A program made the position numbers and the translations under genes. A stretch of 64,000 bases of DNA, from assembly GCF_009914755.1 (NCBI RefSeq), contig NC_060935.1. One strand, written 5' to 3'. The notes under the pieces were generated by a model. It was given only the letters and a program-made list of their open reading frames with translations, did not search any database and was not told the origin of the DNA. Positions 52,506 through 62,074 of this stretch are shown here, one piece after another; position 1 is the stretch's first letter, and every line of letters starts with the position of its first letter. The stretch comes from the human T2T-CHM13v2.0 reference genome, Homo sapiens.

Positions 52506-53662
52506 TGCTCCTCCCATGTTTTTGTCTTCCCTACCACCTCTGATGAACCCACAGTTTTTTTTTTTTTTTGGTTGGTTGTTTGTTTGAAGCTTCTGTTTTT
52601 TTTGAGCTTCCTCTCTTGGTAGCTGAGTCTCTCCACTCAGGGGGGAAAGGAGTGAGTATATGGAGATGTCGAAATATTTGTAGAAATGTCTTAACCTGCA
52701 ATGATAACTGCCATCACACTATCTGATTCCTTAGTGGTTCACTCACACACACTCCAGCAAAGTTGTTTCTCTATGTGAGTTTTAAGGCTCTGCTTATCAG
52801 TGGACTCATCTTTGCCTCCCTATTAATTTCAGCATAGAAAAAGAAGTTTTCCCACAGGTAACCTTTGGAAACAAAGGCAGAGCTTGAGCAGTGATCGAGG
52901 CAATGATTAAGCAGTCAGAAATAAAACGTGAGCTTGCATTCACCTCTGCCGGTGGCGGCCTGAGCTTCTTCCTGTAGACTGTTGACAAAGAAACTTGAGA
53001 AGGCAAAAAAGCCTTTTCAATAGCAAGAGGACACTGTGAAGTGCAGGGAGGACCATATTATGTTGATGATGGATGAGTGGATCCCTCTCCACTGAATGTG
53101 CCAGGCTGGAGCCCATCCATTAGAGAGAGCTTAATCTGCCCAGAGATCTCAGCAGCTCCGGCTGCTGAAAGATAAGCCTCCTCTTCCTGCCTCCTCAGAG
53201 GGCTGTTCTCCTGAAGAAGCTACCTGGCGTCTGTGTAGTGTTCAGAAACTGCAGGAGTGATTGCTTCTCCTCCTCTCTGGCTGGCAGCCCTTGGGGTGCG
53301 AAGCATGAATCCAACCTGGAGCTATCTTGCTGCAAGCTTCCCTGTTGTCCTGGTCACAAGAGTCCTCAGTTGTTCTCAAAATCGTGGAAGAAAAAGTCTT
53401 TTATACTTGAAAACTCATAGTGAGGAGAGCTTAAACTTTCTCCCTGTGCAGAAAAGAAAAAAATGCATCCTATTTTTAAATGGGTTTCCTCATAGAATCT
53501 TCTGATGTGTTAATTCCAGGTCTTGGTCTACAGCTTGAAAATAAAAATACCAACAAATCAGTGTCCCTTGTGAAGGACTTCTCTCCATCTATGCCATACC
53601 TCTGTCTGTCCCTGTCTCTGTCTCTGTTCTCTCTCTCACATGTCTCCTCCCCACCCACCCTG

Positions 53663-53980
53663 TGTTTTGTTTTGCTTGTTTTGTTTTGAGACAGGGTCTC
53701 TGTCACCCAGGTGTTGTGCATTGGCTCTGTCACAGCTCACTGCAGCCTCAACTTCCTGGGCTGAAGTGATCCTCCTGCCTCAGCCTCCCAAGTAGCTGGG
53801 ACTACAGGTGTGTGCCACCACACTCAGCTAATTTCTTCTATTTATTATTATTATTTTTTTTGTAAAGACGGGGTCTCACTATGTTGCCTAAGCTGGTTTC
53901 AAACTCCTGGGCTCAAGCAATCCTCCCATCTCGGCCTCCCAAAGCGCTGGAACTACAGGCCTGAGCCACTGTGCCTGGCC
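53663..53980 (-). mobile_element. AluJ
   Basis: Antisense Alu with (TTTTG)n tail. Confidence 0.9.
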
Positions 53981-54468
53981 TCCTCTCTGTGTTGAACTCA
54001 CTGTATTTCTGCCCATTCAATTCCATGTATTGTCCCCCTCCTCTCTGCTCCCCCCATCCCTGCCCACACTTTCAACATCTCCCACTAGTGCCATCAGCCT
54101 CCTAACAAGCATTCATCTCTGTGCTTTTATATGTGTTTTTTTTAAAGTCTATCCTCCTCACTGTCTTGGCTTATTATTATGTTGGTCAGCAGCTCCTTAT
54201 TACCTACAGTACAGGGTCCAAACATCTTAACATGACATAAGCAACACCTATCTACTCGTTTCTTTCTGCTTCCTGCACATACTCTTCTCACAGCTGAAGC
54301 ATTCTATTTAAAGGATCTCAAATGCTGAAGTGCAGTCTCCAGTTGTTGCACATGCTATGTCCTTTGCTCTTCTTTCTAGGTGAGCTTCCATTCAACCTTC
54401 AAGGCCCAGATTAGAAACTTTGGAACTTTGAGAAACACATTAGGCTTCTGATTGTGTTGCTATTGTAA

Positions 54469-54955
54469 TATTGTATTGCTTATCTATTTCAACATAATGA
54501 ATTGCATACAAATTTAGTGGCTTAAAACAACAAACATTTATTAGCTCACAGTTTCTGTAGTCAGGAATCTGGGAGTGGTTTAGCTGGTGGTTCTGGCTTA
54601 CAGTATCCCATGAGGTTGTAAGTGGAATAACAGCAGGAACTGCAGTCATCCAAAGGCTTGACTGGTACTAGAGGATCCACTTCCAAGCTCACTAATGTGG
54701 CTTAGCAAGAGACCTCAGTTCCTTGCTTGGCTGTTGACTGGAAGCCTCAGTTCCCTACCAATTGGGACTTTTCTCATGACAGGGCAGTCATCTTCCCCAG
54801 AGAGAGTGACCCAAGAGAGAGAGGCAGGAACCACCATGTCTTTCAGGACCTAGATTTGGAAGTGCCATGTCGTCACTTTTACCATATTCGATTGGTCCAA
54901 CAAACAATGGGGTAGGAGACCACACAGTGTGAATACCAGGAGGCCAGGATCATCA
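54469..54955 (-). mobile_element. MLT1-family MaLR LTR
   Basis: aaatttagtggcttaaaacaacaaacatttattagctcacagtttctgtagtcaggaatctggg. Confidence 0.8.
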
Positions 54956-56249
54956 CTCAAAATTCATAAGACCCAGGCTTAAATTTTGGTTCCACCACTT
55001 ATTTGCTGGCTGACCATAGGTAAGTTATTTAACCTCTCTGAGCCCTGATTTCCACATCTGTAAAATCTGAATGATAGGATTGACCTGACAGGGTTGACGT
55101 TGAACCTAAAAAGGTGATTTACCTTAAGCACTTGGCATGTAGTGAGCATTTAATAAATGTTAGCAATTATTATGTTGATAACAGTTCACAGACTCCCTGG
55201 GCCAGTAGCCCCAGGGGTACTCCTATACAGTCCTGTAATGCTCTTATCTTACATTACTCTCCACCTGGGTACTTACTCTTAGATTCAGAAGTGTTTAGAC
55301 CTTCAAATATAGGGCCTCTATGTCCATGTCTTTCATGAACTGTTTTTCTTTGCACAATCTCAGGCTTCTCTAACAATATTAAGCTTCAATCCCATTCCTT
55401 CAGATCCCAAAGATGTGAATGAGATTGTATTTGCATCCTTAAATTAAAACTCCAAGTTTAGCTTGTTTGTTAACTCCATCCCACATGTGGTCATCTGCTT
55501 CAGACCTTGGGGCCTCATCCCCATTGGAATTGTTTTTGTGTCATTTTCGTTCATCAGCTGTGAGTGGTTGCTCCTTGTTAGGGCCTAGGCTCGGTGCCAG
55601 GGTTGCCAAGATAAAGAAGACAGGAACATAGCCCTTTAGAACCTTAGTGTTGTTTCATATCATCATTTTTCTATTTTCTCTGGATGTCTTTCTTCTCAAT
55701 CTTGCTTGAAATGCAGTTTTATTACTAACAACCACCAATTCTTGAGCACTAGCTTCATGTCAGAGTATGTTCATGTCATCCCTCTGCCATTCCTGCAAAG
55801 TGGGTATTACCGTTCTCCCCATCCCTTCTCCATCTTGGAAACAGAAGGCTCCTCATTTATTACAGAGGTTTCTGACTCTGGATCTTGAGCCCTTTCCAAA
55901 ATGACAAGTTGCCAATGTAAATATTTTTTAAATTTAGTTTTATCCCTAGAATGTGATCACCCTACTGCAGATTGGCACATCACTCGCAGTAATGTCCCTG
56001 GTCCCTGGGAGACATGCACGCCAGTCTGCCGGTGTTTGTCCAAAGGGTGACAGGGCCCCTTCAGATCTTTGGTTTCCACAGTAACTATGCAGCCAGCCAT
56101 TCACTCCCGGCTCCAGTCCACTTTCCAACAGAGAAGAAATGAGCATATTAATTGAAACCCTAACCCCTTCAGTTTTCTACTTAGGACTTCAAAGTTACCA
56201 GAAAGTCCGCCCAGATCTCATTTGCCCGAATAATTCTTTCGCAGGGTGG

Positions 56250-56640
56250 TCCCCACCCCCACCCATGTCCACTCCCTGCCTTCCTTTGCTCTACTCTGTG
56301 CTCTGGGAGCCTGGCCCCTCTGAAGCATCACCACAGCTTTTTTGCCCTCTGGTTCCCTTTGGGTTCAGACAAAGGGAGGCACTGGCTAGAGATCAAAGGG
56401 CAGCAGGAGAAGGAGACTGAAGTATTTCTTCTTTCCTGATTCCTCTCCACTTCCGCACCATGTTTCAGGCGATAGTTGTGTCCCTGGTGGCCATAGCTCC
56501 TGCCAGGGTGGGTAGGAGGGAGGTACCTCCTCTGAGTCTCTAGCTCTTACTTGGCCCAGAAACAATCTTTCTTCCCCTTGTCCTTTCATGCCTAGGGGTG
56601 CTAATGCCTTCCAGATGATGCAAATTATGCCCTATACTAG
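56250..56640 (+). mobile_element. LTR33-like ERVL LTR fragment
   Basis: tgccctctggttccctttgggttcag.caa.gggaggcactggctagagatcaaagggcag. Confidence 0.55.
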
Positions 56641-60612: not shown

Positions 60613-60711
60613 ATTCTAAAACAAAGAGAATCCAATAATCAATTATCTCTCTCCCCCTCTCTCTCCATATGTATCATAACTAACAGATTTATTCCAATAA
60701 TTCTCATCAAA

Positions 60712-61004
60712 ATTTTTCTTTTGAGATGGTGTCACTCTGTTACCCAGGCTAGAGTGCAGTGGTATGAACATAGTTCACTACAGCCTCAACCTCCTGGCCT
60801 CAAGAGATCCTCTTGGCTCAGCCTCCCATGTAGCTGGGACCACAGGTGTGCACCATCACACCTGGCTAATTTTAAAAAAGTTTTTATAGAGATGAGGTTT
60901 CACTGTATTGCCCAGGCTGGTCTCGAACTCCTTACCTCAAGCAATCCTCCCTCCTTAGCCTCCCAAAGTGCTGGGATTACAGGCATGAGGCACTGCATCT
61001 GGCC
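60712..61004 (-). mobile_element. AluJ
   Basis: ttgagatggtgtcactctgttacccaggct...gaggcactgcatctggcc. Confidence 0.92.
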
Positions 61005-61637
61005 TAAAATAAACAAACAAACAAACAAACAGTGATTGATTTAGTAAACATTATCTTTTTCTCTGGAAAACTGAGTTACATGGATTTCACAAGGTTACTG
61101 ACTTTCAATGTATGGCTAAAATTGGTGGTAGATTAATTTATGGACATGCTAGTAACAAAATAGAATTTAATAATCTGTTTCATCCTCTAAGTATTTCTGA
61201 CATTTTGTTGTTGTTGCTCATTAGTCCCTGGCTACAAATAACCACAAACTCCCTAGTTAAGATGATGTCAGGACTCTCAGACTAGGGAAAAAAGCCACAT
61301 TCTGGTTGTAAATGAAAATTTAACGGAGAATAAGATATTTGAAAGAGAAAATCATTGTTTTGAGAAAGGAACAAAGAAGCCAGACAAGGTATAAACTTTA
61401 CCAAATGTTCAAAAAATTCATTTAATATCGGGCTTTATAATTCATGAAGTTTCTTTTCTTTTGGCTGCCAACTTATCTAATTACAATTCTAGATTGACAG
61501 CAAAAATATTTAATATTCTCTGAGGAAATACCCAACTCAGGTGAGACAAGGACAGAGCAATGAAATGGAAGAAAACTGTGAGAAACCAGGGAGACTGTAT
61601 TAGTCCGTTTTCACACTGCTATAAAGGACTACCTGAG

Positions 61638-61940
61638 GGCCAGGCATGTTGGCTCACGCCTGTAATCTCAGTACTTTGGGAGGCCGAGGCGGGTGGACCA
61701 GCTGAGATCAGGAGTTGGAGACGAGCCTGGCCAACCTGGTGAAATCCCATCTCTACTAAAAATACAAAAATTAGCTGGGCATAGTGTCGGGCGCCTGTAA
61801 TCCCAGCTACTCGGGAGGCTGAGGCAGGAGAATCACTTGAACTCGGGAGGCGGCGGTTGCACTGAGCCGGGATCACGCCATTGCACTCCAGCCTGGGAAA
61901 CAGATGAGACTCCGTCTCCAAAAAAAAAAAAAAAAAAAAA
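61638..61940 (+). mobile_element. AluS nested in the THE1 LTR
   Basis: TSD aaaggactacctgag (61623-61637) and aaagaactacccgag (61938-61952). Confidence 0.95.
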
Positions 61941-62074
61941 GAACTACCCGAGACGGAGTAGTTTATAAAGAAAGGAGGTTTAATTAACTCACCGTTCCGC
62001 ATGGCTGGGGAGGCCTCAGGAAACTGCAGAGGGTGAGAGGGAAGCAAGCAGTTTCTTCACAATGCAGCAGGAGA

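What the first reader, a model, noticed from the sequence alone, without database searches (positions are those of the whole stretch)
53415..62002. LTR-supplied ATG opens a 54-codon ORF across three candidate exons of the minus-strand 'lncRNA'
Seen: in the THE1 LTR, the first ATG after the TATA-like box (cagccATGc, 62002-62000) lies 10 nt before a strong donor (AACG|GTGAGT, 61993). Splice this to a 126-nt phase-symmetric exon (57898-57773, ttcctatcccacag| ... CCAG|GTAAGG), then to the strong acceptor at 53443. The product is MRNDKLKSVLLNDSMPVKYLRKSSVNGSFCWLVKLLVKGCQRSFPGRKFKLSSL*, with the stop at 53417-53415. The stop falls in the putative last exon, so the RNA would escape NMD. Skipping the middle exon keeps frame (MRNGRKFKLSSL*). 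Known: MaLR LTRs can donate promoter, AUG and splice donor to chimeric transcripts. Inference: a primate-specific, basic de novo microprotein from a transcript annotated as non-coding. The exon model is unverified, and an ORF this short can arise by chance. The unspliced ORF track cannot show it.
Basis: partly seen in the sequence, partly recalled or inferred. Interest (0 to 1): 0.8.

Follow-up and report, generated by a model that had tools for sequence, protein, structure and literature searches.

The report
LTR-started short ORF in LINC00958
An old retroviral-type repeat supplies the start site, the first AUG and the first splice donor of the human non-coding RNA LINC00958, but the proposed 54-residue protein depends on two unannotated splice junctions and is no longer than chance allows.

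Summary
The first exon of LINC00958 lies inside a solitary MaLR-type LTR (62267-61596, 5-bp target duplications, split by an Alu). The ATG and the GT donor 10 nt after it are features of the LTR family: ATG is kept in 25 of 29 related copies and GT in 26 of 29. This copy alone has G rather than T before the GT, and its leader has no upstream ATG.

The only annotated junction is 61993>53533, not 53443, and there is no middle exon. On that RNA the same ATG opens 17 codons, with the stop at 53492-53490. The 54-codon ORF needs two unannotated junctions. In 85 of 300 dinucleotide shuffles of the intron an ORF at least as long could be assembled the same way. The middle-exon peptide has no Pfam match, no paralogue and no database homologue.

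One paper reports SmProt micropeptides of LINC00958 with strong Ribo-seq and initiation-site support, but does not say which ORF, and supplements were closed. My verdict is an ordinary LTR-promoted lncRNA with a short AUG-proximal ORF. The 54-aa microprotein is unverified and unlikely.

The parts
61596..62267 (-). Solitary MaLR-type (THE1-like) LTR that starts TGATATGG and ends ...AATACA. It is split by an Alu. Its own length is about 357 nt (62267-61941 plus 61625-61596).
   Evidence: sequence; 6468 first-look candidates in the same genome; 39 other scored copies at 78-82% identity covering query positions 56-64 to 370-380.
62268..62272 (-). Target-site duplication GTCTC on the upstream side of the LTR. 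Its twin lies at 61595-61591.
   Evidence: the same 5-mer directly flanks both LTR ends.
61638..61940 (+). Alu inserted into the LTR about 50 nt after the donor, so it lies in intron 1. It shows a poly-T run on the minus strand and is flanked by about 12-nt near-identical duplications (61952-61941 and 61637-61626).
   Evidence: sequence. The hub table lists a masked stretch at 61591-61950. The name Alu is my reading of the sequence and was not tested against a library.
62105..62111 (-). TATA-like box TTAAAAG of the LTR, 26 nt before the annotated transcription start at 62085.
   Evidence: (sequence) and the hub annotation (exon 1 is 62085-61993).
61993..62085 (-). Annotated exon 1 of LINC00958 (NR_038904.1), wholly inside the LTR. 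It has an 83-nt leader with no ATG.
   Evidence: Hub annotation. (first ATG at transcript nt 84). (0 upstream ATGs here, against at least 1 in 22 of 29 related copies).
62000..62002 (-). LTR-derived ATG in the context CCAGCCATGC (G at -3, C at +4).
   Evidence: ATG is kept at the aligned place in 25 of 29 related copies.
61987..61992 (-). LTR-derived splice donor GTGAGT, used in the annotated RNA. The last exon base, 61993, is G in this copy only.
   Evidence: Hub annotation. GT in 26 of 29 copies and GTGAGT in 21 of 29; the base before GT is T in 29 of 29 relatives; the rough donor score is 6.1 here against a maximum of 4.8 among 26 copies with GT.
52068..53533 (-). Annotated exon 2 (the last exon) with acceptor ...ttttcaag|C. 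The 17-codon ORF from ATG 62002 ends here at stop 53492-53490.
   Evidence: Hub annotation..
57773..57898 (-). It is unannotated and unverified.
   Evidence: its donor is the best of 457 GT sites in the intron by a rough recalled matrix (7.4), while its acceptor is middling (2.5; 40 of 662 AG sites score as high); single copy in the genome.
57654..57947 (-). Genomic stop-free stretch of 98 codons in the same frame. It runs past both ends of the candidate exon.
   Evidence: No Pfam family at E up to 1. No paralogue in the genome (self hit plus one hit at E 0.58).
53415..53443 (-). It lies inside annotated exon 2 and is also read, in the same frame, by a separate 17-codon ORF from ATG 53468-53466.
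   Evidence: rough acceptor score 11.2, against 1.3 for the annotated acceptor at 53533.

Best explanation
LINC00958 is an LTR-promoted long non-coding RNA. A solitary MaLR-type LTR supplies the TATA-like box, the start site, the whole first exon, the first AUG and the first splice donor.

The AUG sits 10 nt before the donor, an arrangement inherited from the LTR family. Every RNA that starts here therefore opens a reading frame whose first three codons come from the LTR. The acceptor that is used decides the rest. On the one annotated RNA (61993>53533) the frame closes after 17 codons, in the last exon.

Inferred: scanning ribosomes on the cytoplasmic share of the RNA start at this AUG and make a very short, probably unstable and functionless peptide, as happens on many lncRNAs. 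The 54-codon frame is what results if two unannotated junctions are chosen. Its length is within chance, so it is most likely not a gene product.
For: - Sequence and translation.
- LTR anatomy: TG...CA ends, GTCTC duplications and an Alu insertion.
- High copy number: 6468 candidates.
- Family origin of the ATG (25 of 29 copies) and the GT (26 of 29).
- Copy-specific G at donor -1 (0 of 29 relatives) and an ATG-free leader (7 of 29 relatives share this).
- The annotated TSS at 62085 lies 26 nt after TTAAAAG (plus the hub annotation).
- The annotated junction gives 17 codons.
- Chance test: 85 of 300 shuffles reach at least 54 codons, although shuffles held fewer candidate exons (mean 8.5) than the real intron (17).
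- P(42 codons open) is 0.087.
- The open frame overruns both exon ends, as random open stretches do.
- No family, paralogue or homologue for the exon peptide.
- Low CPAT coding score reported for LINC00958 (PMC5428251, passages).
- A THE1B LTR giving a promoter and a splice donor to CSF1R, and LTRs as a major class of lncRNA promoters, are described in PMC5134097 (passages).
Against: - By a rough, recalled splice matrix the candidate exon's donor (CAG|GTAAGG) is the best of 457 GT sites in the intron. Acceptor 53443 scores far above the annotated one (11.2 against 1.3). Use of these sites in some isoform is therefore plausible.
- RefSeq lists a single transcript. I recall, without having seen it here, that GENCODE holds many more LINC00958 isoforms, and one of them could carry the exon.
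- PMC13501293 (sections 2.3 and 3.5 read) names LINC00958 among genes whose SmProt micropeptides have initiation-site and Ribo-seq P values below 1e-4. Some ORF of this gene is therefore reported as translated.
- The AUG context is fair (G at -3).
- The RNA is about half cytoplasmic in FL3 cells.
Confidence: 0.68

Rival explanations
1. An isoform with the 126-nt cassette exon and acceptor 53443 is made, exported and translated from the LTR's AUG into a basic 54-residue, primate-restricted microprotein with a function of its own.
For: - The string is there and is open.
- The cassette is phase-symmetric, its donor scores best in the intron, and the terminal acceptor is very strong.
- The AUG is the first one, has a fair context and follows an ATG-free leader.
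- The stop lies in the last annotated exon.
- The predicted product has pI 10.5, with 12 K+R against 2 D+E.
- The RNA is partly cytoplasmic.
- LINC00958 is named as having Ribo-seq-supported micropeptides.
Against: - Neither junction is in the annotation supplied, which uses 53533.
- The length is within chance (85 of 300 shuffles).
- The acceptor at 57898 is only middling (40 of 662 AG sites score as high).
- The open frame ignores the exon borders (98 codons).
- There is no domain, paralogue or homologue.
- The C-terminal 9 residues are also encoded by a separate 17-codon ORF of the annotated RNA (ATG 53468-53466). Peptides from that part would therefore not discriminate between the models.
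Confidence: 0.05
2. The LTR-derived AUG and its short frame (17 codons on the annotated RNA, 12 if 53443 is used directly) act as a regulatory upstream-ORF-like element. Translating it would load the RNA onto ribosomes and affect its stability, its localisation or the use of downstream small ORFs. The peptide itself would not matter.
For: - It is the first AUG, 83 nt from the cap, in a fair context.
- The leader was cleared of the upstream ATGs that 22 of 29 related copies carry.
- Downstream ORFs exist, among them 17 codons from transcript nt 159 and 58 codons from nt 511.
- LINC00958 pull-down recovered proteins of translation initiation and regulation (PMC5428251, passages).
Against: There is no direct evidence. 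An ATG-free leader is also seen in 7 of 29 related copies, so it may be drift. The pull-down result has other readings.
Confidence: 0.12
3. No ORF from this AUG is translated to any meaningful degree. The RNA acts, if at all, as RNA, and is mostly nuclear in many cell types.
For: - It is predominantly nuclear in RT4 cells, and its CPAT score is low (PMC5428251, passages).
- The many functional papers listed treat it as a non-coding regulator (titles and abstracts only).
Against: - Nucleus and cytoplasm hold roughly equal shares in FL3 cells.
- SmProt-derived Ribo-seq and initiation-site support is reported for LINC00958.
Confidence: 0.15

Closest known systems
THE1B LTR-driven CSF1R transcript in Hodgkin lymphoma (described in PMC5134097, passages read)
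   Same: A solitary MaLR LTR initiates transcription and contains the splice donor that joins to downstream exons.
   Different: In the CSF1R case the LTR exon is only 5' UTR and the normal CSF1R protein is made. Here the LTR's own ATG is the first AUG and the downstream exons are non-coding. Whether the CSF1R donor is the same family position as the one here was not checked.
[quoted passage not shown]
   Same: The TSS, the first exon and the donor are all inside an LTR, and the transcript is annotated as non-coding.
   Different: Nothing in kind. LINC00958 was not linked to THE1 in the searched library. 0 papers hold both words. 8 papers hold LINC00958 and LTR. I read passages of one of them, and there LTR refers to another RNA.
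Ribo-seq-defined small ORFs of lncRNAs (SmProt entries as used in PMC13501293; sections 2.3 and 3.5 read)
   Same: A short AUG-initiated frame near the 5' end of a capped, spliced, partly cytoplasmic lncRNA. LINC00958 is named there as strongly supported.
   Different: The text does not say which LINC00958 ORF is supported.
LTR-derived peptides in the cancer immunopeptidome (PMC6771403, seen in the search listing only)
   Same: LTR-initiated transcripts as a source of novel short translation products.
   Different: I did not read that paper. No peptide evidence for this locus was seen.

Membership tests
MaLR (THE1-like) solitary LTR | TG...CA termini flanked by a 5-bp target-site duplication | tested here: met
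   The LTR starts TGATATGG at 62267 and ends ...AATACA at 61596. GTCTC lies at 62272-62268 and at 61595-61591.
MaLR (THE1-like) solitary LTR | Thousands of dispersed related copies in the genome | tested here: met
   There are 6468 first-look candidates. 40 were scored, and the 39 non-self copies lie on many chromosomes at 78-82% identity.
MaLR (THE1-like) solitary LTR | Assignment to THE1 rather than MST or MLT1 by match to a curated repeat library | not testable with these tools
   No Dfam or Repbase library was available. The length of about 357 nt fits THE1 only by my recollection.
LTR-promoted lncRNA | The transcription start lies inside the LTR, downstream of its TATA-like box, in sense orientation | tested here: met
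   The annotated TSS at 62085 lies 26 nt after TTAAAAG (62111-62105). Exon 1 (62085-61993) is wholly within the LTR (plus the hub annotation). The TSS is taken from the annotation and was not measured here.
LTR-promoted lncRNA | The first splice donor is supplied by the LTR | tested here: met
   The annotated exon 1 ends at 61993 before GTGAGT. GT is present at the aligned position in 26 of 29 related copies.
Translated microprotein (small-ORF gene) | The ORF lies on a transcript whose exon junctions are documented | tested here: not met
   For the 54-codon ORF, neither 61993>57898 nor 57773>53443 is in the annotation supplied, whose only junction is 61993>53533. Only RefSeq was seen. GENCODE and read data were not available.
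Translated microprotein (small-ORF gene) | ORF length or coding signal beyond chance | tested here: not met
   85 of 300 dinucleotide shuffles of the intron give an ORF of at least 54 codons by the same procedure. P(54 codons open) is 0.043 per frame.
Translated microprotein (small-ORF gene) | Ribosome occupancy with 3-nt periodicity, or an initiation peak at the AUG | not testable with these tools
   There is only an indirect statement that LINC00958 micropeptides in SmProt have P below 1e-4 (PMC13501293).
Translated microprotein (small-ORF gene) | Frame conserved under purifying selection in related species | not testable with these tools
   No primate genomes are held. Only the window's own genome could be searched.
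Translated microprotein (small-ORF gene) | Relatives or a known domain | tested here: not met
   Pfam gave 0 families at E up to 1. The genome gave the self hit plus one hit at E 0.58. The protein database gave no homologue among proteins of 22-70 aa or 71-2000 aa. De novo microproteins are expected to lack relatives, so this is weak evidence.

The most novel reading that the evidence does not exclude
A single base change in one old MaLR LTR (T to G before the family's GT) and the loss of its upstream ATGs turned the LTR into a complete gene head: promoter, clean leader, AUG and strong donor. An alternative LINC00958 isoform that includes the 126-nt cassette exon is then translated into a basic, anthropoid-restricted microprotein of 54 residues (59 with the annotated acceptor). 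This product would account for part of the Ribo-seq signal and part of the cancer phenotypes now credited to the RNA.
Probability: 0.04. Interest if true: 0.6.

Novelty: new member of a known kind. Interest (0 to 1): 0.22.

Why it matters
LINC00958 (BLACAT2) is widely studied as a cancer lncRNA, always as RNA. If its LTR-derived AUG drove a real microprotein, knock-down phenotypes would need to be read again, and there would be a clean example of an LTR supplying a whole gene head for a de novo protein.

What the evidence actually shows is more modest:
- The gene's promoter, first exon, first AUG and donor are LTR-derived. I found no paper in the searched library that links LINC00958 to THE1.
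- One copy-specific base strengthens the donor.
- The AUG opens only 17 codons on the annotated RNA.

This is useful for annotation and for designing ATG-mutant controls, but it is an ordinary case of a well-known kind.

Tried and rejected
1. Supplement search of PMC13501293 for the identity of the LINC00958 micropeptides.
3. The BLACAT2 paper of He et al. 2018 (PMC5785244), wanted for RACE, localisation and coding tests, is not held. Its content is not used.
4. Literature.
   - LINC00958 with THE1: 0 papers.
   - With LTR: 8 papers, one checked and unrelated.
   - With Ribo-seq: 4 papers, only PMC13501293 relevant by title.
   - With immunopeptidom-: 2 papers.
   - With ribosome: 132 papers; the 25 listed are mostly m6A reviews by title.
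   - One search was badly framed, with min_terms 2 and LINC00958 not forced, and returned nothing useful.
5. Primer mapping. The one primer pair I read (PMC11176504) has its forward primer in the annotated last exon, as judged by eye. It says nothing about the middle exon.
6. A repeat origin for the middle exon is rejected at this sensitivity, since it is single copy in the genome. An ancient diverged repeat is not excluded.
7. A pseudogene or domain origin for the 98-codon open stretch is rejected.
8. The bacterial-type promoter and terminator scan is irrelevant to a human locus and is not used.
9. The Rfam scan of the window found nothing in the locus.
10. The splice-site scores come from a small frequency matrix that I recalled, not from a trained model such as MaxEntScan. 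They rank sites only roughly.

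
Full report
**The observation.** On the minus strand the ATG is at 62002-62000. The exon ends at 61993 in front of GTGAGT. A 126-nt stretch, 57898-57773, is bounded by ...cccacag| and CCAG|GTAAGG. 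An AG acceptor precedes 53443. The arithmetic is right.

**What the annotation says.** The hub table gives one LINC00958 transcript, NR_038904.1, with exons 62085-61993 and 53533-52068.
There is no middle exon.
- On this RNA the same ATG is the first ATG (transcript nt 84) and opens 17 codons, with the stop at 53492-53490 in the last exon.

**The repeat.**
- The first exon lies in an LTR that starts TGATATGG at 62267 and ends ...AATACA at 61596. The same 5-mer, GTCTC, flanks both sides, so this is a solitary LTR with its target-site duplication.
- An Alu-like insert (about 61940-61638, with about 12-nt flanking duplications) splits the LTR roughly 50 nt after the donor. The name Alu is my reading of the sequence.
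- Searching the window's own genome with the LTR gave 6468 first-look candidates. 40 were scored, and the 39 non-self copies are 78-82% identical.
- That copy number, the termini, the 5-bp duplication and the length of about 357 nt fit a MaLR LTR of the THE1 type. The subfamily could not be tested because no repeat library was available, so the fit to THE1 rests on my recollection.
- The annotated start site at 62085 lies 26 nt after the LTR's TTAAAAG box.

**Family origin of the ATG and the donor.** I compared the 29 best-scoring other copies that were fetched as loci, out of 39 scored. They are biased towards relatives of this copy.
- ATG is kept in 25 of 29 copies, GT in 26 of 29 and GTGAGT in 21 of 29.
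- The ATG-10 nt-GT arrangement is therefore inherited from the family.
- Two things are particular to this copy. The base before the GT is G here and T in 29 of 29 relatives. That lifts a rough donor score to 6.1, against a maximum of 4.8 among the 26 copies with GT. Also, the leader between the TATA-like box and the ATG holds no other ATG, whereas 22 of 29 relatives have one to three.
- I built no consensus.

**Is the 54-codon ORF more than chance?** I used a small splice-site frequency matrix that I recalled, so it is approximate.
- The candidate exon's donor is the best of 457 GT sites in the 8459-nt intron (7.4). Its acceptor is middling (2.5; 40 of 662 AG sites score as high). Acceptor 53443 is very strong (11.2). 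The annotated 53533 is weak (1.3).
- In 300 dinucleotide-preserving shuffles of the intron, 85 allowed at least one ORF of at least 54 codons from the same ATG through one candidate exon to either terminal acceptor. The shuffles held fewer candidate exons (mean 8.5) than the real intron.
- At the intron's stop frequency (0.0565), 42 codons stay open with probability 0.087.
- The stop-free stretch in this frame runs for 98 codons, from 57947 to 57654, past both exon borders. That is the pattern of a random open stretch rather than a frame shaped to an exon.

**What the exon peptide resembles.** Nothing was found.
- Pfam: 0 families at E up to 1.
- The human genome in six frames: the self hit and one hit at E 0.58.
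- The DNA is single copy.
- The large protein database: no homologue among proteins of 22-70 residues or 71-2000 residues (the tool itself calls this weak evidence).
- A de novo peptide would be expected to look like this, so these results argue only against an old coding origin.

**Literature.**
- PMC5428251 (passages) reports a low CPAT score. It also reports roughly equal nuclear and cytoplasmic shares in FL3 cells, nuclear enrichment in RT4 cells, and pull-down of translation-related proteins.
- PMC13501293 (sections 2.3 and 3.5) filters SmProt micropeptides by initiation-site and Ribo-seq P values. It names LINC00958 among genes with P below 1e-4 on both.
- PMC5134097 (passages) documents a THE1B LTR that initiates transcription and donates a splice donor to CSF1R. 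It also describes LTRs as a major class of lncRNA promoters.
- No paper in the library holds both LINC00958 and THE1. Of the 8 papers holding LINC00958 and LTR, I read passages of one, and there LTR concerns another RNA.

**Reading.**
- Shown: an LTR gives LINC00958 its start site, first exon, first AUG and donor. One copy-specific base strengthens the donor. The annotated RNA carries a 17-codon AUG-proximal frame.
- Inferred: ribosomes on the cytoplasmic share of the RNA start there and make a short peptide of no known role.
- Unverified and, on present evidence, unlikely: the 54-residue microprotein. It is not excluded, because the cassette's donor and the 53443 acceptor look good and only RefSeq's single model was available.

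**Scores.** This is an ordinary member of a known kind, an LTR-promoted lncRNA with a small ORF. I rate interest at 0.22. The boldest reading still open, a real LTR-headed microprotein from an alternative isoform, has a probability of about 0.04.

Noticed in passing
window 61993 (minus strand), compared with loci L002-L030: The last base of exon 1, just before the GT donor, is G in this LTR copy and T in all 29 related copies compared. This single change brings the donor close to the consensus, and it may be what made this LTR a working first exon.
   Followed up: partly
window 53443 against 53533: By a rough recalled matrix, the unannotated acceptor before 53443 scores 11.2 and the annotated acceptor before 53533 scores 1.3. 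An alternative 3' splice site 90 nt inside exon 2 seems plausible. It would cut the AUG-proximal ORF to 12 codons.
   Followed up: no
window 53116-52940 (minus strand): The longest ORF of the annotated LINC00958 RNA has 58 codons, from transcript nt 511, and lies wholly in the last exon.
   Followed up: no
window 53468-53415 (minus strand): A 17-codon ORF of the annotated RNA starts at ATG 53468-53466.
   Followed up: yes
window 52068-52180 (minus strand): The annotated 3' end at 52068 has no AATAAA or ATTAAA within the usual 10-30 nt. The only such signal between 52400 and 51300 is at 52180-52175, 107 nt upstream. The annotated end may therefore not be a true poly(A) site.
   Followed up: partly
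window 36173-36224 (+): Rfam mir-1268 precursor match at 83.3 bits against a gathering score of 83, inside a stretch masked as repeat (36036-36343). It is probably repeat-derived.
   Followed up: no
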